Below, piece after piece: positions 34,061 through 64,000 of a DNA stretch of 64,000 bases; position 1 is the stretch's first letter; each line of letters starts with the position of its first letter. Source of the stretch: Leptonemataceae bacterium (GTDB lineage Bacteria > Spirochaetota > Leptospiria > Leptospirales > Leptonemataceae); assembly GCA_965227295.1 (NCBI GenBank), contig OZ245742.1, positions 2,752,001 to 2,816,000 on the forward strand, given 5' to 3'. A model generated the notes under the pieces. The model was not told the origin of the DNA and searched no databases. It was given only the letters and a program-made list of their open reading frames with translations. A program made the translations under genes and the position numbers.

Positions 34061-36802
34061 ATGTTCATTGACACGACGCGTACGGGCTCGCCCCATTCTG
34101 GCGTGACCTGTCCGTTGCCCCTGCGCGTTGCCCTTCGCATCGCCGGCATCTGCCTGCTGTTGCAGGGCGTGCTTGCCTGCGGGCCCACACCACCGGAAGC
34201 GCGGCGCGGGCACACGAATCTTTTCTCCTGGGACTACGAGCGCGACGGCCCCTATCGTCTGCGCGGTGAATGGGAGTACTATCCCGACCAGGCCCTGCGT
34301 CCCGCCGACTTCCGTGATCCCCGCGAAGACGCGGAGTACTTGCGTGCTCCCGGCGGCTGGTCGGCGTTGCTCTTGCCGCCGCGGCCGCGTCTCACTCCTC
34401 GCATGGCGACGTATCGCCTGGAGATTTTCAGTCACGAGGCGTCACGCCTGGCCGCCCTGCGCATTCCTGTCTGCGTACGCAGTTGCCGCATCTGGCTCGG
34501 GGACGAACTCATCGCCTCCCGCGGCGATCCGGAGCAGGTCGGCGGCACAACCGCCTGGAACTGGAACTATCAACGCCTTGTGCGTACCGACGCCGAGGCG
34601 CTGTCTCTGCCCGTAGTCGTACAAACGCGAGAACTCTACCCCGGTCAGGGATTGGATGCGGGGCCGTTTTATCTGGGCATTGAAGACGATTTGCGTTTGC
34701 TGGAACGCAATCGCACGGTGTTGGACGTCGGCTTAAGTGGCGCTTTGTTGATCTTAGCGGCATACTTCTTCGGCATCTATCTCTATCGGCGCAAGGATCG
34801 CGCGCCGCTGTTTTTCTCCGGTCTGGCGTTGATGCTCGCGGTACGCGGGACGGTGGCCGGGGAGCGCATCCTCAGCGGATTGTGGCCGGACCTCAATCTG
34901 CACGTGGTGCAGATGCTCGACTCCGGTTCTTTTTACGCGGCCATGTTTTTACTCGCGGCCTACGTGCGGACCCTGTTTCCCGGGCGGTTTTCCAGTCGCA
35001 CGGTGCGGGTCATGCTGATCGCGCTGATCCTCGGCCTGCTGGTGCTGCTGGTCTTTGCGCTGCCCTTCGGTGCGCTGGAAATCGGCGGAGCCGCCCTCGT
35101 CGTGTACGATGCCGTCTTCGGTTGGTTCACGGTGGCCGTCGTCGTTTTCGCAGCGTTCAAGGTCATGAGCCTTACCGGCGATCAACGCTGGGATGCATTG
35201 TGGCTCTTTCCCGGACTGGTCTTTTTTGCGTTTGCCGTCCTGTACGAGGGCCTGTTCTCCGTCGGCCTCGCAGAGATTTACGGACTCATTCCCGCGGCGT
35301 ACCTTGCCTTTATGCTTTCCCAGGCGGTCATGCTTTCCACGCGTTTTTCCGGAGAGTTCGCGCAGGTGGAGAATCTTTCGCAGCGCCTGGCGCAGACGAA
35401 CACCGAACTCAAGTCGCTGCAGGCCGGGCTGGAAGATCGCGTGCGGGAGCGCACGGCGGAATTGGAGCAGGCCCGGGAAGAGGCCGTGAAGCTGAACGAG
35501 TTCGCCCGGCGCATCAATTCCTCCGGTGACCTGGACGACATTCTGCATCACATCTTCACGTACCTGGAGTTTCACTTCGACATCGATTGCACGTTGTTGC
35601 AGTTCGTTGACTCCGAGAAAAACGAGCTCTACTATTATCGCATGTCCAGCGTGCCGGCGCACTTTACGGACGATCATCATCGCATCTTAAAAGAGACGCG
35701 CATCCCCGTGGAGCAGGGGCAGCGATTGATCGGCCGCGCGCTCTTCGACGGCCGGCGTCCGGTGTACTACAGTAAGATTCGAGCGCCCCGGGAAAAGTCG
35801 GAGCGCGATCGTTCGTTCTTTTATGAACTCGGCTTTCGTTCGTTTCTCATGGTGCCCCTGGTCATCGAAGAACGCATCATCGGACTCATTCACTTTACGA
35901 ACTTCAGTCGGGAGTTTCGTCCGGCCCGGGACGAGATTGCGCGCATTGCCCGGGTGTGCGATCAGATCGCCGGGGCCGTACGTTCGTCGCTGTTATTGAA
36001 TCGTGCGGAAGAAGAGCGCGCGAAGGCGGACCGCCTGCTCGTAAACATTCTCCCGGGCGCCGTGGCCGAGGAACTCAAAGAGAAGGGCAGTGTCGATCCG
36101 CTGCTCTACGAAAGCGTGACGATTTGTTTCACGGACTTCAAGGCGTTCACCGCCATCGCCGAAAGCATGGACCCGGACGAATTGCTGCGCGAGCTGGACG
36201 GTTGTTTTACGCAGTTTGATTTGATCACCGAACGTTACGGCATTGAACGGTTGAAGACCATCGGCGACGCCTACATGTGCGCCGGCGGATTGCCGCGCAT
36301 CAATTACACGCATCCCGTGGATGTGGTGCTCGCCGCACTGGAGATTCAGGACTTCATGACCGGCCTGCAGGCCTTGAAGGAGCAGGCCGCGCTGGAGGCC
36401 CGGGAGCGCGGTTTCGAACCGGATAGCAACGATCCGGTGTGGGAGTTGCGCCTGGGCATTCACACCGGGCCGGTGATGGCCGGTGTCATCGGCAAAAAGA
36501 AGTTCGCCTACGACGTCTGGGGAGATACGGTGAACGTCGCCTCGCGCATGGAAACCGAGGGCGTCCCCGGCCGCATCAACATCTCGGGATATACGAGTCA
36601 ACTGGTCTCACCGTTCTTCGAAACGGAACTGCGCGGCGAGGTCGCCTTGAAACATCACGGTAGCATGGATATGTACTTCGTGAATCGCCTGCGGCCGGAG
36701 TACTCCGATGACGAAGACGGGCGCCGGCCTAACGCGCACTTTCGCGAAGTTTACGAACGGAAAGTCAAAGTCGGCGCGTTGTATACCGGCGGGCTGTCAT
36801 GA
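34061..36802 (+). CDS. Class III adenylate/guanylate cyclase with 7TM-DISM sensor and GAF domain
   Basis: LRGEWEYYP extracellular domain, 7 TM, coiled coil, GAF (FLMVPLV), then LLVNILP, FTDFKAFT, LKTIGDAYM and YDVWGDTVNVASRME. Confidence 0.93.
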   Translation: MFIDTTRTGSPHSGVTCPLPLRVALRIAGICLLLQGVLACGPTPPEARRGHTNLFSWDYERDGPYRLRGEWEYYPDQALRPADFRDPREDAEYLRAPGGWSALLLPPRPRLTPRMATYRLEIFSHEASRLAALRIPVCVRSCRIWLGDELIASRGDPEQVGGTTAWNWNYQRLVRTDAEALSLPVVVQTRELYPGQGLDAGPFYLGIEDDLRLLERNRTVLDVGLSGALLILAAYFFGIYLYRRKDRAPLFFSGLALMLAVRGTVAGERILSGLWPDLNLHVVQMLDSGSFYAAMFLLAAYVRTLFPGRFSSRTVRVMLIALILGLLVLLVFALPFGALEIGGAALVVYDAVFGWFTVAVVVFAAFKVMSLTGDQRWDALWLFPGLVFFAFAVLYEGLFSVGLAEIYGLIPAAYLAFMLSQAVMLSTRFSGEFAQVENLSQRLAQTNTELKSLQAGLEDRVRERTAELEQAREEAVKLNEFARRINSSGDLDDILHHIFTYLEFHFDIDCTLLQFVDSEKNELYYYRMSSVPAHFTDDHHRILKETRIPVEQGQRLIGRALFDGRRPVYYSKIRAPREKSERDRSFFYELGFRSFLMVPLVIEERIIGLIHFTNFSREFRPARDEIARIARVCDQIAGAVRSSLLLNRAEEERAKADRLLVNILPGAVAEELKEKGSVDPLLYESVTICFTDFKAFTAIAESMDPDELLRELDGCFTQFDLITERYGIERLKTIGDAYMCAGGLPRINYTHPVDVVLAALEIQDFMTGLQALKEQAALEARERGFEPDSNDPVWELRLGIHTGPVMAGVIGKKKFAYDVWGDTVNVASRMETEGVPGRINISGYTSQLVSPFFETELRGEVALKHHGSMDMYFVNRLRPEYSDDEDGRRPNAHFREVYERKVKVGALYTGGLS

Positions 36803-37681
36803 CTTTTTATCTGCGTCGGCGGAGTTGCAAAAGTCCTTATGTTTATCCTGAGGAATCTTAAGGAATTGTAAGAAGTCCCGCATGGAGCCGTTGAAGGTAT
36901 TCAAGTCCCAGCGGGCCGAGCGTCCGTTCTTGTCGTCGACGCCGTCGAAATACCCCTGGGCGAAGTACTGCCAGAACATCCACTTTTCCCAACCGAAAAG
37001 CGCCCGGGACGGGGCTTTCTTTTGTTCGTAGAGTTGAAAGATCGTGGGGTTGTCGCTCTGACTTTGATCGGCGTTCTTGGCGACGGGATAGTAGGCCATC
37101 CAGAGCGGGTAGTCGTCCAGGGCCGTTGTGTTCTTCATTTGCTCTTTCCAGAACGCCGGGTAGGAGTATACTACGGGGCGTTGGCCGCTTTCCTTCTCCA
37201 CGATCGAAAGAAAGCTGCGAATATTGGCCACCGTCTTCGACATGTCGGCACCGGCGGCGAAATAGGCGGCGTTGCGCTCCAGTTCTATGTCCAGGGCCAT
37301 GGGCATCTCGGCCTTGCCGAACTGTTGTTCCACGGCCGCCACACTTTTTAAGAAGAACTCGGCCTGTGTCTCGGGTTCTTGATCGAAGATGTAGTAGTGA
37401 TATGCGCCGCGCAGCATGCCGGCCTTGCCGGCGCCTTCCCAGCCGACCTTGAGTTCGTCGTCGACGATGTTCTGTCCCTGCGTGGCTTTCACGAAGGCGA
37501 AGTCCACGTCGTGTCGCTTGCGGAGCTCGGCCCATTCATCGACGCTGATGGTTTCTTCGAAAGAAGAGTCCACGCCCCGGGCGTGGAGGGCGTCGCATTG
37601 CGGCTCGCCCTCGTCGGGAGTTCCGAGGCAGGCCGTGCCGCTTAAGAGTATGACGCTGAGAGTTAACCGTGCGGCGGACAT
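36797..37681 (-). CDS. GH25 lysozyme (muramidase), putative lipoprotein
   Basis: GVDSS, FAFVKATQG, RGAYHY, ALDIE, LWMAYY, FWQY and WDLNTF motifs; signal ending LSGTAC. Confidence 0.9.
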   Translation of the reverse strand: MSAARLTLSVILLSGTACLGTPDEGEPQCDALHARGVDSSFEETISVDEWAELRKRHDVDFAFVKATQGQNIVDDELKVGWEGAGKAGMLRGAYHYYIFDQEPETQAEFFLKSVAAVEQQFGKAEMPMALDIELERNAAYFAAGADMSKTVANIRSFLSIVEKESGQRPVVYSYPAFWKEQMKNTTALDDYPLWMAYYPVAKNADQSQSDNPTIFQLYEQKKAPSRALFGWEKWMFWQYFAQGYFDGVDDKNGRSARWDLNTFNGSMRDFLQFLKIPQDKHKDFCNSADADKKS

Positions 37682-63697: not shown

Positions 63698-64000
63698 ACG
63701 ATTCTCGTTCCTCATATCTGGATCGCCTGCCGGGGCTCTATCGCGGGGCGCTGCACCGACCGGGTGTATCCGCTGAGGGCGCGCAACATTCCGAAAGCAG
63801 TGCGGAATTCCTGGGGCCGTTTCTTAAGATTTTCGAAACGATTCTTACAGAGAAACTGGACCCGGCTTCCCTTGAAAATCGCTCGCTGGGCGAAATGATC
63901 GATGCCCTGCCCGATATGCTCTACCCGGCCCTGTACTTTTTGTTTCCTCACGAGGAAGGTTCGGAAACGGAACGAGATTTTGTTCCGCCGTTGCCCATGG
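63694..64000 (+). CDS. Phage tail protein I-like baseplate protein, 3' truncated by window edge (not in ORF track)
   Basis: TTG overlaps the previous TGA, with a GGAGG RBS; SSYLDRLPGLYR...FLGPFLKIFETIL...IDALP; open to the window end. Confidence 0.8.
   Translation, partial: MNDSRSSYLDRLPGLYRGALHRPGVSAEGAQHSESSAEFLGPFLKIFETILTEKLDPASLENRSLGEMIDALPDMLYPALYFLFPHEEGSETERDFVPPLPM

What the first reader, a model, noticed from the sequence alone, without database searches (positions are those of the whole stretch)
36797..64000. eCIS (contractile injection system) locus in a probable Leptospirales spirochaete
Seen: sheath, two tubes, cap, AAA+ ATPase, LysM initiator, split VgrG, PAAR-like DUF4280, gp25 and two baseplate-J genes. 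No capsid, terminase, portal, integrase or TssJLM/ClpV gene is in the window. Established: the Afp15 ATPase + DUF4255 + DUF4157 combination distinguishes eCIS from prophage, T6SS and R-pyocin. Inference: the flanking genes look Leptospiraceae-like, a lineage in which I know of no characterised eCIS. The locus has its own effector array and accessory operon.
Basis: partly seen in the sequence, partly recalled or inferred. Interest (0 to 1): 0.88.

Follow-up and report, generated by a model that had tools for sequence, protein, structure and literature searches.

The report
Contractile injection system in a Leptospirales bacterium
This stretch encodes a phage-tail-like protein-injecting machine of a well-known, widespread kind, here in a relative of Leptospira where none has been studied; whether it is released or fires from inside the cell cannot be read from the sequence.

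Summary
Window 36.8-64.0 kb carries all 8 of 8 core subunits that Chen 2019 uses to define Afp/PVC-type ("eCIS") loci, plus three DUF4157 proteins and a DUF4280 tip.

No head, terminase, portal, integrase or T6SS membrane gene is in the 64 kb.

The split VgrG and two baseplate-J genes match lineage II subtypes IIa/IIc. The core is collinear with an uncharacterised Paenibacillus cellulosilyticus locus that ends without head genes.

Of 24 organism-named Acs relatives, 20 are Leptospirales.

"Extracellular" is not shown. The closest solved relatives are the cytoplasmic Streptomyces CIS and the membrane-anchored haloarchaeal CIS.

Afp/PVC-like clusters were already listed for Treponema and Spirochaeta in 2014.

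Verdict: a new member of a known kind, with a very divergent sheath and rare effector domains. Interest is moderate.

The parts
36797..37681 (-). GH25 muramidase, 294 aa. It has an N-terminal hydrophobic signal-like segment ending at Cys19 (possible lipoprotein). It is the last gene of the divergent operon.
   Evidence: Glyco_hydro_25 1.9e-35. PHROG endolysin 1.6e-23. Its start overlaps the stop of the upstream gene by 1 nt. The signal peptide is read by eye from the sequence.
37681..38445 (-). Ala-rich (27% Ala) 254-aa protein, function unknown.
   Evidence: No family hit in Pfam, NCBIfam or PHROGs. Composition and GC3 of 0.76 fit a real gene.
38470..39327 (-). Ala-rich (28% Ala) 285-aa protein, function unknown. 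The overlapping plus-strand ORF 38413-39282 looks spurious.
   Evidence: No family hit. The plus-strand ORF is 20% Gly and 16% Arg. Similarity to the 254-aa neighbour is only weak (E 0.007).
39448..39831 (-). DUF4280 PAAR-like protein, the presumed spike tip.
   Evidence: DUF4280 6.4e-27. IglG-like 4e-10. No PAAR gene lies between the VgrG C-half and gp25, where the collinear Paenibacillus locus has one.
39806..41560 (+). Methyltransf_28 (MidA/NDUFAF7-type) plus TPR protein. Its start is uncertain and its membership in the system is uncertain.
   Evidence: PF02636 at 29.3 bits (cut-off 23.3) and TPR_2 2.3e-8. No counterpart in L002 or L003.
41954..44287 (+). Afp15/Cis15-type AAA+ ATPase, 777 aa.
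   Evidence: AAA 7.2e-32 plus WHD PF22977 2.5e-30. phrog_10401 1.1e-68. 44% identity to the Paenibacillus ATPase, which has the same two domains.
44638..46440 (+). DUF4157 effector candidate a. The ORF opens at 44542; the likely start is 44638. It has HExxH in the N-terminal domain and a rare HNH-like C-terminal motif.
   Evidence: eCIS_core 1.3e-19. Its first 47 residues are 55% identical to protein b. Its C-terminus aligns with all 10 invariant columns of A1.
46458..48299 (+). DUF4157 effector candidate b, 613 aa, with the same rare C-terminal domain.
   Evidence: eCIS_core 1e-21. Its C-terminal 170 aa found only 7 proteins in 1.84 billion representatives, self included. 2 of the 6 relatives carry DUF4157. 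The atlas gives HNH/GHH/GH-E leads at 0.80-0.83.
48333..48959 (+). Cap / tail terminator (Afp16/Cis16, DUF4255).
   Evidence: Pvc16_N 1.9e-29. Weak PDB hits to All3327 (0.019) and Afp16 (0.037).
48961..49971 (+). DUF4157 protein c, 336 aa. It has the same N-terminal module as b and a short, unrelated C-terminus.
   Evidence: eCIS_core 4e-20. 61% identity to b over 204 residues, none beyond that.
50163..50190 (+). Sigma-70-like hexamer pair (TTGACC, 16 nt spacer, TATAGC) 136 nt upstream of the sheath start. This is a weak, post-hoc lead.
   Evidence: Single match in the window. The pattern was chosen after reading the intergenic sequence, so the chance estimate does not apply.
50326..52020 (+). 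Sheath (Cis2), 564 aa.
   Evidence: Pfam. PDB matches 8bl4/8bky at about 1e-60, 9ezm 1.5e-52, Pvc2 2.5e-43, T4 gp18 about 1e-9, pyocin 1e-6. Only one close relative, P0122 at 68% identity.
52077..52514 (+). Inner tube (Cis1-like).
   Evidence: Phage_T4_gp19 1.3e-44. TIGR02241 2.7e-39.
52532..52852 (+). Tail-assembly-chaperone-like protein. It probably starts at CTG 52532; the first canonical start is TTG 52565.
   Evidence: phrog_508 'tail assembly chaperone' 3.1e-7. Residues 4-105 of the CTG-started form are 58% identical to the Paenibacillus counterpart and 55% to the Kitasatospora one. GAGG lies 6 nt upstream of the CTG.
52825..53040 (+). DUF6760 ORF in the -1 frame. It has no ATG, GTG or TTG before the domain. 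CTG 52849 overlaps the chaperone stop codon (CTGA).
   Evidence: DUF6760 5.5e-16. The same CTGA overlap occurs in Kitasatospora, where the CDS is annotated from CTG. The ORF is in the -1 frame in all 3 loci examined.
53044..53475 (+). Second tube protein, closer to the Cis5 tube-adaptor model.
   Evidence: gp19 2.3e-42. CIS5_fam 104 bits against CIS1_fam 50.8 bits, both below their cut-offs.
53485..55782 (+). 765-aa Arg/Ala/Pro-rich protein, a tape-measure candidate assigned by position.
   Evidence: No Pfam, PHROG or PDB hit. The only relative, P0249, shares chiefly the last ~40 residues, which are near-identical. It lies between tube/chaperone and tube initiator. The atlas finds hypothetical-protein clusters of Bacillota and Methanobacteriota at 0.89-0.90.
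55787..56428 (+). Tube initiator with a LysM-like C-terminus (Afp7/Cis7).
   Evidence: CIS_tube 1.9e-27. 9gtp_P 5.9e-14. 35% identity to the Paenibacillus CIS_tube+LysM protein.
56397..57668 (+). VgrG N-half (gp27-like hub). The true start may be the second Met, near 56439.
   Evidence: VgrG_rel 1.4e-34, model positions 5-270. Weak Phage_GPD hit.
57670..58806 (+). VgrG C-half (gp5-like OB domain plus beta-helix spike).
   Evidence: Phage_base_V 1.2e-21 and DUF2345 5e-6. VgrG_rel model positions 361-477.
58831..59217 (+). gp25 baseplate wedge (Afp9/Cis9).
   Evidence: GPW_gp25 1e-27.
59210..62605 (+). Baseplate J, long form (Afp11/Cis11a), 1131 aa.
   Evidence: Baseplate_J 9.7e-16. TIGR02243 2.5e-53. 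9gtp_1K 3.6e-40.
62609..63697 (+). Second, shortened baseplate-J paralogue (Cis11b-like), 362 aa.
   Evidence: It aligns to residues 2-73 and 497-596 of the 653-aa Paenibacillus Cis11b. 9gtp_1K residues 1-73 at 2.4e-18, and weak hits to Cis12 N-termini.
63694..64000 (+). Start of a Tail_P2_I-like baseplate gene, cut by the window end.
   Evidence: It aligns to residues 448-482 of the Paenibacillus 683-aa protein, which overlaps the start of that protein's Tail_P2_I domain (463-613) (pairwise E 8e-4). No Pfam or PDB hit on its own.

Best explanation
Window 36.8-64.0 kb, running on past the window end, is a chromosomal gene cluster for a phage-tail-like contractile injection system (CIS) of the Afp/PVC ('eCIS') superfamily, lineage II. 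Its gene organisation is that of subtypes IIa/IIc. The host is a ~60% GC bacterium of the order Leptospirales.

Shown by homology:
- a baseplate (gp25, two baseplate-J paralogues, a Tail_P2_I-like protein);
- a spike made of separate gp27-like and gp5-like VgrG halves;
- a LysM tube initiator;
- tube and tube-adaptor proteins;
- a sheath;
- a DUF4255 cap;
- an Afp15-type AAA+ ATPase.

Inferred:
- The DUF4280 protein, encoded divergently, caps the spike.
- The 765-aa protein acts as tape measure, helped by the chaperone-like and DUF6760 proteins.
- The three DUF4157 proteins are cargo. A shared N-terminal leader plus the DUF4157 module would bring them to the machine with help from the ATPase.
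- Two of the three end in a rare domain whose invariant H, N and H residues suggest an HNH-type nuclease.
- The exported GH25 muramidase cuts the producer's own peptidoglycan, either for lysis or for local passage. It is not tube cargo.

Deployment cannot be read from the sequence. My estimate is about 55% that the machine fires while still inside or attached to the producer cell (cytoplasmic or membrane-anchored), as all characterised lineage II systems do. I give about 35% to release as free particles.
For: - Core genes: 8 of 8 present, plus DUF4157 three times. The definitions come from Chen 2019 passages and Geller 2021 passages.
- Subtype: Chen 2019 states that a split afp8 occurs in IIa, IIb and IIc, and two afp11 copies in IIa and IIc. 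Both are seen here.
- Synteny: 13 of 23 window proteins match the Paenibacillus cellulosilyticus locus L003 in the same order, at 27-58% identity.
- Graded similarity of the sheath: CIS sheaths score 1e-60 to 1e-30, T4 gp18 about 1e-9, pyocin 1e-6. The best phage sheath is 26.6% identical.
- No head, terminase, portal, integrase or T6SS membrane families in 62 ORFs scanned. The collinear locus is followed by one unknown gene, two peptidoglycan-hydrolase-type genes and then housekeeping genes.
- Host: Acs relatives run from 82% identity (unnamed) through 76-77% ('Leptospirales bacterium') to 72% (Leptonema, Leptospira).
- One contig: Acs, sheath and the 765-aa protein all map to a contig of the same 5.94 Mb length. 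GC and GC3 are even across flank and locus.
- Cargo: b and c share 61% identity over 204 N-terminal residues and then diverge. The C-terminal domain of b recurs behind DUF4157 in 2 of its 6 relatives. Ten columns are invariant, including H95, N114, N119, H129 and H133.
- Precedent: S. davawensis Tme is a DUF4157 protein with a C-terminal endonuclease (passages).
- Cell-associated lean: S. coelicolor (IId) and Roseiflexus (IId) are cytoplasmic, and Halogeometricum (IIa) is membrane-anchored (passages).
Against: - The locus is cut at 64,000, so tail fibres, membrane anchors or even head genes downstream cannot be excluded for this genome.
- The subtype call rests on gene organisation only. No Afp11 phylogeny with reference loci was possible.
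- The nuclease reading rests on a motif, on atlas scores of 0.80-0.83 (below the tool's 0.9 threshold for more than a lead) and on a model of pLDDT 55. Pfam finds nothing in these C-termini or in the relatives.
- The tape-measure role is positional only.
- The characterised lineage II systems come from actinomycetes, Chloroflexota/Deinococcota and archaea, so their mode may not carry over to a spirochaete. Characterised CIS of Gram-negative bacteria include released forms such as Afp, PVC, MAC and AlgoCIS.
- An exported muramidase and the peptidoglycan hydrolases beside the collinear locus would also fit lysis-driven release.
- No membrane-anchor candidate (no hydrophobic helix) is seen in the visible genes.
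- Taxonomy rests on a single marker gene.
Confidence: 0.85

Rival explanations
1. A true extracellular CIS. Particles assemble in the cytoplasm and are freed by producer lysis, helped by the GH25 muramidase. They bind other cells through fibres encoded beyond the window and inject the DUF4157 toxins.
For: - All core genes of the 'eCIS' superfamily are present.
- A GH25 enzyme of endolysin type is translationally coupled into the accessory operon.
- The collinear Paenibacillus locus is followed by two peptidoglycan-hydrolase-type genes.
- A Tail_P2_I-like gene starts at the window edge, and an 833-aa unknown protein follows its Paenibacillus counterpart.
- Characterised CIS of Gram-negative bacteria include released particles (Afp, PVC, MAC, AlgoCIS), as named in Casu 2023 (passages).
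Against: - No tail-fibre gene is visible.
- No holin-like membrane protein is in the accessory operon.
- The GH25 carries its own export signal, so it need not wait for lysis.
- None of the lineage II systems whose papers I read is released.
- The Roseiflexus paper (PMC12998442) states that mode of action cannot be predicted reliably from sequence.
Confidence: 0.35
2. A self-directed cytoplasmic CIS, like those of S. coelicolor or S. davawensis. It would fire inside the stressed producer; the nuclease-like cargo and the muramidase would then cause cell death and DNA release.
For: - By PDB sequence search, the sheath, both baseplate-J proteins and the tube initiator are closest to CIS-Sc chains.
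- DUF4157 proteins with a nuclease-like end parallel Tme.
- No small immunity-like ORF lies beside effectors a and b; the gaps are 17 and 33 nt.
Against: - The gene organisation differs from IId, which has a single VgrG ORF and a single afp11.
- No CisA-like membrane protein is seen in the window, although in Streptomyces that gene lies downstream of the baseplate genes.
- Many eCIS toxins also lack immunity genes (Geller 2021 passages).
Confidence: 0.3
3. A membrane-anchored, contact-dependent CIS (T6SS-like mode), as in Halogeometricum borinquense (clade IIa).
For: - The split VgrG and two Cis11 paralogues match IIa.
- The sheath matches 9ezm at 1.5e-52.
- A long Cis11a (1131 aa) could form a membrane-contacting cage, as proposed for Cis11 in that system.
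- An exported muramidase could open the peptidoglycan locally.
Against: - No membrane protein comparable to Hbor_38620 is among the visible genes.
- There are no immunity genes for kin protection.
- A spirochaete envelope, with periplasmic flagella and an outer membrane, is unlike an archaeal S-layer.
Confidence: 0.2
4. The tail module of an intact or decayed myovirus prophage, or an R-type tailocin.
For: - The sheath, tube, chaperone, baseplate and GH25 'endolysin' all hit phage families.
- The sequence downstream of 64 kb is unseen.
Against: - The Afp15-type ATPase, the DUF4255 cap and three DUF4157 proteins are present.
- No head, terminase, portal or integrase gene and no tRNA occur in 64 kb.
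- The best phage sheath is 26.6% identical and the pyocin sheath scores 1e-6, against 1e-60 for CIS sheaths.
- The collinear locus has no head genes on either side.
- GC is even, with no insertion signature.
Confidence: 0.03

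Closest known systems
Uncharacterised CIS locus on the 2.7-Mb replicon NZ_CP054613.1 of Paenibacillus cellulosilyticus (L003/L004)
   Same: The order of core genes is the same: ATPase, cap, sheath, tube, chaperone-like, DUF6760, tube, tube initiator, VgrG-N, VgrG-C, gp25, long Cis11a, Cis11b, Tail_P2_I. 13 of 23 window proteins match it at 27-58% identity.
   Different: The Paenibacillus locus has a classical PAAR gene between VgrG-C and gp25. It has no DUF4157 genes and two ORFs (352 and 532 aa) where the window has the 765-aa gene. 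Its Cis11b is full length (653 aa against 362 aa). It has no counterpart of the GH25/Ala-rich/DUF4280 operon. It is itself unstudied, and no features are annotated in that stretch of the PLSDB record.
CIS-Sc of Streptomyces coelicolor (subtype IId, cytoplasmic; PDB 8BKY, 8BL4, 9GTP)
   Same: It is the best solved-structure match for the sheath (about 1e-60), Cis11 (3.6e-40), the second baseplate-J protein (2.4e-18) and the LysM tube initiator (5.9e-14). It also has two tube genes and no typical Afp13 or Afp14.
   Different: IId has one contiguous VgrG and one afp11. Its effectors are transmembrane proteins (Sco4256-4258), not DUF4157 proteins. The window sheath is not inside a Streptomyces-like clade; it sits on its own long branch.
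Haloarchaeal T6SS-like CIS of Halogeometricum borinquense (clade IIa; PDB 9EZM)
   Same: It is the sheath's next-best solved system after the two Streptomyces sequences (1.5e-52). It has Cis11a/b paralogues and is the first characterised clade IIa system.
   Different: It is archaeal and plasmid-borne, has two subclusters, and has a dedicated membrane-anchor gene. No such gene is visible here.
Streptomyces davawensis CIS with the Tme effector, and the similar Kitasatospora plasmid locus L002
   Same: L002 runs sheath, tube, chaperone-like, DUF6760, then a large DUF4157 protein upstream of the baseplate genes. Tme is a DUF4157 protein with a nuclease at its C-terminus. L002 has the same CTGA overlap of chaperone stop and DUF6760 start.
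   Different: There, DUF4157, the tape-measure-like body and the nuclease are fused in one giant protein. Here the tape-measure candidate has no DUF4157, and the DUF4157 proteins sit upstream of the sheath. The nuclease motif is also different: EndA-type DRGH/H-N-N in Tme. L002 has a single VgrG ORF.
Afp of Serratia and PVC of Photorhabdus (subtype Ia, extracellular)
   Same: They share the core set and the Afp15/Afp16 hallmark. The sheath matches Pvc2 at 2.5e-43 and Afp3 at 1.7e-39.
   Different: They have three sheath paralogues, a contiguous VgrG, and Afp12/13/14 with tail fibres, with effectors at the 3' end. They belong to lineage I.
Phage tail assembly chaperones G/GT (programmed -1 frameshift; recalled from the phage literature, not read here)
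   Same: There is a small chaperone-like gene after the tube gene. The next ORF is in the -1 frame, overlaps its end and lacks a canonical start in 2 of 3 loci.
   Different: The window has no perfect X XXY YYZ slippery heptamer (G CCG GGG). A CTG start re-initiated at the CTGA overlap explains the same facts. In Paenibacillus an in-frame ATG exists upstream.

Membership tests
Afp/PVC-type CIS superfamily ('eCIS-like locus' in the sense of Chen 2019 and Geller 2021) | All eight core subunits: Afp1/5 tube, Afp2/3/4 sheath, Afp7 LysM, Afp8 VgrG, Afp9 gp25, Afp11 baseplate J, Afp15 AAA+ and Afp16 cap | tested here: met
   8 of 8 were found in one cluster. The list is taken from Chen 2019 passages.
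Afp/PVC-type CIS superfamily ('eCIS-like locus' in the sense of Chen 2019 and Geller 2021) | DUF4157 (eCIS_core) domain proteins in the locus | tested here: met
   Three proteins score 1e-19 to 1e-21, each with HExxH. Geller 2021 passages.
Afp/PVC-type CIS superfamily ('eCIS-like locus' in the sense of Chen 2019 and Geller 2021) | No phage head, terminase or portal genes attached to the tail module | tested here: inconclusive
   None occur in the 64 kb or around the collinear Paenibacillus locus. Sequence beyond 64,000 of this genome is unseen, because the genome-contig scan did not find the source.
Extracellular mode of action (a true eCIS) | Tail fibre (Afp13-like) gene | tested here: not met
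   No fibre family was found among the visible genes. One may lie downstream of the window.
Extracellular mode of action (a true eCIS) | Particles released into the medium that act on other cells | not testable with these tools
   This needs culture, microscopy and supernatant preparations.
Lineage II, subtypes IIa/IIc (Chen 2019) | afp8 split into gp27-like and gp5-like ORFs | tested here: met
   The two ORFs cover VgrG_rel model positions 5-270 and 361-477.
Lineage II, subtypes IIa/IIc (Chen 2019) | Two copies of afp11 | tested here: met
   There is a 1131-aa and a 362-aa paralogue, and both match S. coelicolor Cis11. The second is shortened relative to the 653-aa Paenibacillus Cis11b.
Lineage II, subtypes IIa/IIc (Chen 2019) | Placement in the Afp11 phylogeny with dbeCIS reference loci | not tested
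Subtype IId cytoplasmic CIS (Streptomyces, Roseiflexus) | A single contiguous VgrG ORF and a single afp11 | tested here: not met
   VgrG is split and there are two baseplate-J genes.
Classical T6SS | TssJ/L/M membrane complex, TssB/C two-part sheath and ClpV | tested here: not met
   No such Pfam or NCBIfam family occurs in 62 ORFs. The sheath is a single phage-type protein. DUF4255 and baseplate J are present, which Chen 2019 says T6SS lacks.
R-type tailocin or myovirus prophage | Sheath and tube closest to phage or pyocin proteins; lysis cassette with holin; head genes for a prophage | tested here: not met
   The pyocin sheath scores 1e-6 and T4 gp18 about 1e-9, against 1e-60 for CIS sheaths. 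The best phage sheath is 26.6% identical. No protein of the accessory operon except the DUF4280 protein has a hydrophobic 19-residue stretch above the threshold, and that protein is PAAR-like, so no holin-like protein is present.
HNH/beta-beta-alpha-Me nuclease toxins (for the C-termini of DUF4157 proteins a and b) | Conserved His, Asn and His/Asn on a beta-beta-alpha fold | tested here: inconclusive
   H95, N114, N119, H129 and H133 are invariant in 7 sequences, and a strand-strand-helix order is predicted. Against this, model confidence is under 50 in that region, there is no Pfam hit, and atlas scores are 0.80-0.83.
Order Leptospirales (host) | Housekeeping genes closest to Leptospirales genomes | tested here: met
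   For Acs, 20 of 24 organism-named hits are Leptospirales-level and 23 of 24 are Spirochaetota (lineage). Only one marker was tested and the family is not resolved. A GC of 0.60 is higher than I recall for named Leptospiraceae.

The most novel reading that the evidence does not exclude
This could be the founding example of a deep, almost unsampled CIS branch. Its sheath has a single relative above 40% identity among 5.8 billion protein clusters, on a stem of 1.5 changes per site. It may have adapted to a spirochaete envelope, using an exported muramidase to pass the peptidoglycan. It would deliver a previously undescribed HNH-like nuclease domain (6 relatives in 1.84 billion representatives) through a DUF4157 leader.

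In addition, lineage II CIS may keep the phage G/GT-style chaperone pair (chaperone-like gene plus DUF6760). This would be expressed either by a -1 frameshift or by CTG re-initiation. The feature is conserved from Actinomycetota and Bacillota to Spirochaetota.
Probability: 0.2. Interest if true: 0.65.

Novelty: new member of a known kind. Interest (0 to 1): 0.4.

Why it matters
CIS loci are common, so one more is not a surprise. Its value lies in four specific points.

1. I found no report of a CIS in Leptospirales.
   - Searches for 'contractile injection system' + Leptospira and for eCIS + Spirochaetes gave no relevant paper.
   - Chen 2019's supplements list Spirochaetes only among the genomes screened.
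   - The searched parts of the Geller 2021 and 2025 metagenome supplements contain none.
   - Sarris 2014 lists only Treponema and Spirochaeta.
2. Lineage IIa/IIc-type systems are barely characterised. None has been studied in a double-membraned bacterium, so the mode of action here is a genuinely open question.
3. The DUF4157 cargo carries a rare, unannotated C-terminal domain that can be tested as a nuclease toxin.
4. The chaperone-like/DUF6760 pair, with its non-canonical start, hints at how these machines set tube length. This may be general to lineage II.

Tried and rejected
- **Genome scan.** The genome-contig scan with the 362-aa baseplate protein aimed to recover the source genome and its downstream DNA. 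It returned 1 locus of 39 candidate stretches, a 30%-identity Planktophila fragment that is not related.
- **Cluster members.** The organisms behind P0122, P0002 and P0003 stay unknown.
- **Complex prediction.** Complex prediction (three copies of the VgrG C-half plus DUF4280) was never run. The queue was full and the tool then became unavailable. The spike-tip pairing is therefore untested.
- **Structure of the b C-terminal domain.** AlphaFold2 on a 7-row alignment gave mean pLDDT 55, under 50 over the motif. I did not run fold search on it because matches would be meaningless.
- **Pfam at E up to 5.** Nothing usable was found for the effector C-termini, the 765-aa protein, the Ala-rich proteins, the Cis11a N-terminal 817 aa, the 362-aa protein or the partial last ORF.
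- **PDB sequence search.** The 765-aa protein and the last ORF gave nothing. The ATPase gave only generic p97/VCP-type hits.
- **Ala-rich proteins.** They are not significantly similar to each other (E 0.007) or to the Ala-rich 513-aa protein at 24916-26457 (E 0.44).
- **ORFs rejected as genes** on composition and GC3: 41523-41822, 44287-44538, 38413-39282 (+), 49972-50775 (-) and 61790-63715 (-).
- **RNA genes.** No tRNA and no Rfam family in the window.
- **Promoter and terminator scan.** Counts did not clearly exceed the shuffles: 4 promoter-like sites against a mean of 6.1, and 31 terminator-like sites against 21.0 with sd 4.7.
- **Frameshift site.** I considered and did not adopt a canonical -1 slippery heptamer in the window, because the site is imperfect. 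Kitasatospora has a perfect C CCG GGG.

Full report
**1. Observation**

I called ORFs over the window and scanned 30 candidates from 34-64 kb and 32 from 0-34 kb against Pfam. I also scanned 25 against NCBIfam and 22 against PHROGs.

The main operon runs on the plus strand, in this order:
- an Afp15-type AAA+ ATPase (41954-44287);
- two DUF4157 proteins (44638-46440 and 46458-48299);
- the DUF4255/Pvc16_N cap (48333-48959);
- a third DUF4157 protein (48961-49971);
- the sheath (50326-52020);
- a gp19-type tube (52077-52514);
- a second tube (53044-53475);
- a 765-aa unknown (53485-55782);
- the CIS_tube/LysM tube initiator (55787-56428);
- the VgrG N-half and C-half (56397-57668 and 57670-58806);
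- gp25 (58831-59217);
- a 1131-aa baseplate J (59210-62605);
- a 362-aa second baseplate-J paralogue (62609-63697);
- an ORF cut by the window end (63694-64000).

A divergent minus-strand operon holds DUF4280 (39448-39831), two Ala-rich proteins of unknown function (38470-39327 and 37681-38445) and a GH25 muramidase (36797-37681). The start of the muramidase overlaps the preceding stop codon by one base.

Several long ORFs in this 60% GC DNA are antisense or intergenic artefacts, judged by composition and GC3. No tRNA or Rfam family lies in the window.

**2.

*Chaperone-like gene.* Between the two tube genes lies a small gene that matches a PHROG 'tail assembly chaperone' family (3e-7). It has 55-58% identical counterparts in two other CIS loci. 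The homology extends upstream of the first canonical start codon. A CTG at 52532 with GAGG six bases before it is the likely start.

*DUF6760 ORF.* Overlapping the chaperone's stop codon, in the -1 frame, is an ORF that matches Pfam DUF6760 (5.5e-16). It has no ATG, GTG or TTG ahead of the domain. A CTG overlaps the stop as CTGA.
- The Kitasatospora plasmid locus L002 has the same CTGA overlap, and its annotated 'DUF6760 family protein' CDS begins at that CTG.
- In Paenibacillus the DUF6760 frame is also -1 and overlaps the chaperone by 58 nt.
- All three loci share the bases CG GGG GAR, one further codon and then the stop.
- This could be a G/GT-like -1 frameshift, or re-initiation at a CTG. 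I cannot tell which.

*765-aa protein.* It has no family or PDB match. Among 5.8 billion clusters its only relative, P0249, matches over 16% of the query, and the last ~40 residues of the two proteins are nearly identical. A conserved C-terminal end on a fast-evolving body, placed between tube/chaperone and tube initiator, is what I would expect of a tape measure. That assignment is an inference.

*Last ORF.* It aligns over the start of the Tail_P2_I domain of the Paenibacillus counterpart (E 8e-4 pairwise).

**3. What kind of system it is**

Chen 2019 (passages) names eight core subunits present in over 85% of eCIS-like loci. All eight are here. Geller 2021 (passages) adds DUF4157 as a core marker, often at the N-terminus of toxins. 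Three such proteins are here, each with HExxH.

PDB sequence searches give a graded picture for the sheath:

| Solved sheath | E-value |
|---|---|
| S. coelicolor / S. venezuelae CIS | about 1e-60 |
| Halogeometricum CIS | 1.5e-52 |
| Pvc2 | 2.5e-43 |
| Afp3 | 1.7e-39 |
| Anabaena | 1.6e-33 |
| AlgoCIS | 2e-29 |
| T4 gp18 | about 1e-9 |
| R-pyocin | 1e-6 |

The best phage sheath in 50,697 phage records is 26.6% identical. Baseplate J, the second paralogue and the tube initiator all hit the S. coelicolor baseplate entry 9GTP best. This is a CIS of the Afp/PVC superfamily. It is not a T6SS, a pyocin or a phage tail.

**4. Subtype**

Chen 2019 states that afp8 is split into gp27 and gp5 ORFs in IIa, IIb and IIc. 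It also states that two afp11 copies occur in IIa and IIc, while IId has single genes. The window has both features, so its organisation is IIa/IIc-like, not IId like Streptomyces.

A tblastn of the sheath against plasmid records led to a locus on a 2.7-Mb Paenibacillus cellulosilyticus replicon. I annotated it with Pfam. It is collinear with the window from the ATPase to the Tail_P2_I gene, and 13 of 23 window proteins match it in order at 27-58% identity. The 10 without a match at E ≤ 1e-3 in that tblastn are:
- the GH25 muramidase;
- both Ala-rich proteins;
- DUF4280;
- the methyltransferase-TPR protein;
- the three DUF4157 proteins;
- the 765-aa protein;
- the partial last ORF (which matches only in a direct pairwise comparison).

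Downstream of that locus come an 833-aa unknown, a VgrG3-like_C lysozyme-type protein, a PG_binding/C39-like protein, and then an AraC regulator and an ABC transporter. There are no head genes. By analogy only, the window's locus probably ends a few genes past 64 kb.

In a FastTree of the 120 listed sheath hits (the window's own sheath among them) plus the two plasmid sheaths, the window and P0122 (68% identity) sit alone on a stem of 1.52 changes per site. The tool warns about long-branch joins there. No subtype reference sequences were available, so IIa versus IIc is open.

**5. Host**

The window's Acs has relatives at these identities:
- 80-82%: unnamed records, two of which share a 6.44-Mb contig, plus one labelled 'MAG: ... 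[bacterium]';
- 76-77%: 'Leptospirales bacterium' and 'Leptospiraceae bacterium' MAGs;
- 72%: Leptonema illini and Leptospira spp.

Of the 24 listed hits that carry an organism name, 23 are Spirochaetota and 20 are Leptospirales-level (lineage checked). The self-hits of Acs, sheath and the 765-aa protein all report a longest contig of 5,938,550 bases. GC (0.54-0.66 in 2-kb windows) and GC3 are alike in flank and locus. A chimeric contig is therefore unlikely.

By contrast, none of the 11 organism-named sheath hits is a spirochaete. They are archaea, Bacillota, Blastocatellia and Syntrophobacteria. No listed sheath hit comes from the 6.44-Mb relative. The locus is therefore patchy in this lineage.

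The family is unresolved and only one marker was tested.

**6. Cargo and accessories**

*DUF4157 proteins.* Proteins b and c share 61% identity over their first 204 residues and nothing after that. Proteins a and b share 55% over the first 47 residues. This is the layout of polymorphic toxins: a constant delivery module with variable ends.

*C-terminal domain of b.* Its C-terminal 170 residues found only 7 proteins, self included, in 1.84 billion representatives.
- One of the seven is a low-complexity match.
- 2 of the 6 non-self hits have DUF4157 at the N-terminus.
- Aligned with the C-terminus of a, ten columns are invariant: A92, H95, K99, N114, L115, N119, D120, R122, H129 and H133.
- The spacing of His, Asn and His suggests an HNH/beta-beta-alpha-Me nuclease.
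- The protein atlas pointed the same way, but only at 0.80-0.83 (Tox-GHH, HNH, GH-E, colicin DNase).
- The AlphaFold model was too poor to use (pLDDT 55).
- The precedent is S. davawensis Tme, a DUF4157 protein with a proven C-terminal endonuclease (passages).
- No immunity-sized ORFs flank a and b.

*GH25 enzyme.* It has a signal-like N-terminus with a cysteine at position 19. I therefore read it as exported by the general secretion pathway and acting on the producer's wall, not as tube cargo.

*Methyltransf_28-TPR gene (39806-41560).* It has no counterpart in the related loci and may not belong to the system.

**7. Mode of action**

The name 'eCIS' fits as a family label. Release into the medium is not shown. 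The lineage II systems whose papers I read are all cell-associated:
- S. coelicolor is cytoplasmic.
- Roseiflexus and its relatives are cytoplasmic.
- Halogeometricum is membrane-anchored and contact-dependent.
- In S. davawensis, particles are discussed as attached to the cell envelope.

The Roseiflexus paper states that mode prediction from sequence alone is unreliable. In the visible genes I see no fibre gene and no membrane anchor. The peptidoglycan hydrolases fit either lysis or local wall opening.

I put about 55% on a cell-associated mode (cytoplasmic about 30%, anchored about 20%, remainder unclear), about 35% on free particles and about 10% on something else or no function.

**8. Novelty**

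- Searches for 'contractile injection system' + Leptospira (1 paper, on toxins) and eCIS + Spirochaetes (2 papers, listings only read) gave no CIS study in this group.
- In Chen 2019's five supplementary files, Spirochaetes and Leptospira occur only in the table of genomes screened (that file was cut when stored).
- In Geller 2021's supplements, 10 of 15 files were searched and none names a spirochaete as host.
- The 2025 metagenome survey has none in its text or in its 3 supplementary files.
- Sarris 2014, Table 1, already counts 4 Treponema and 2 Spirochaeta genomes with Afp/PVC-like clusters.

So the phylum is known to carry such loci. The order Leptospirales is, as far as these searches reach, new, and no spirochaete system has been characterised.

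This is a new member of a known kind. Its noteworthy features are a very divergent sheath, rare cargo domains and an unresolved mode of action. I score interest at 0.4.

Noticed in passing
window 52825-53040, with L002 18402-18554 and L003 18884-19117: The DUF6760 ORF lies in the -1 frame over the end of the chaperone-like gene, with no canonical start codon in the window. CTG overlaps the stop as CTGA, as in the Kitasatospora plasmid, where the CDS is annotated from CTG. All three loci share the bases CG GGG GAR, one further codon and then the stop. This is either a G/GT-like frameshift or CTG re-initiation.
   Followed up: partly
window 52529-52567: The chaperone-like gene's homology to relatives begins 11 codons upstream of its first ATG, GTG or TTG. 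A CTG at 52532 with GAGG 6 nt upstream is the likely start, so this genome may use CTG starts that standard ORF callers miss.
   Followed up: partly
window 53485-55782 and protein P0249: The 765-aa Arg/Ala/Pro-rich protein has one relative in 5.8 billion clusters. That match covers only 16% of the query, and the last ~40 residues of the two proteins are nearly identical.
   Followed up: partly
window 39806-41560: A MidA/NDUFAF7-type methyltransferase domain fused to TPR repeats lies directly upstream of the CIS ATPase. It has no counterpart in the two related loci. Several CIS proteins here are Arg-rich (10-14%). Any link between the two is pure speculation.
   Followed up: no
window 34061-36802: A 913-aa adenylate/guanylate cyclase with 7TMR-DISM, GAF and cyclase domains converges on the GH25 gene, with a 6-nt overlap of the two gene ends. 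It is a possible regulator or merely the flank.
   Followed up: no
window 6830-8740 and 8886-10784 (minus strand): Two tandem paralogue-sized proteins (636 and 632 aa), each with an N-terminal CarboxypepD_reg-like domain, lie next to an 802-aa Wzy_C (O-antigen ligase-like) protein at 2798-5206.
   Followed up: no
window 27318-33760: Biotin genes bioD, bioA and bioB are spread over 6 kb with unassigned minus-strand ORFs between them. The longest bioB ORF (478 aa) has about 165 residues ahead of the radical SAM domain, so its start is probably miscalled.
   Followed up: no
L004 11842-13831 (Paenibacillus cellulosilyticus, minus strand): The collinear CIS locus is followed by a VgrG3-like_C lysozyme-type protein and a PG_binding_1 plus Peptidase_C39_2 protein. 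This echoes the GH25 gene beside the window's locus, so peptidoglycan hydrolases may be a regular companion of this CIS type.
   Followed up: partly
window 50163-50190: TTGACC, a 16-nt spacer and TATAGC lie in the 355-nt AT-richer gap before the sheath gene. This suggests the structural genes have their own promoter, separate from the ATPase/effector genes.
   Followed up: no
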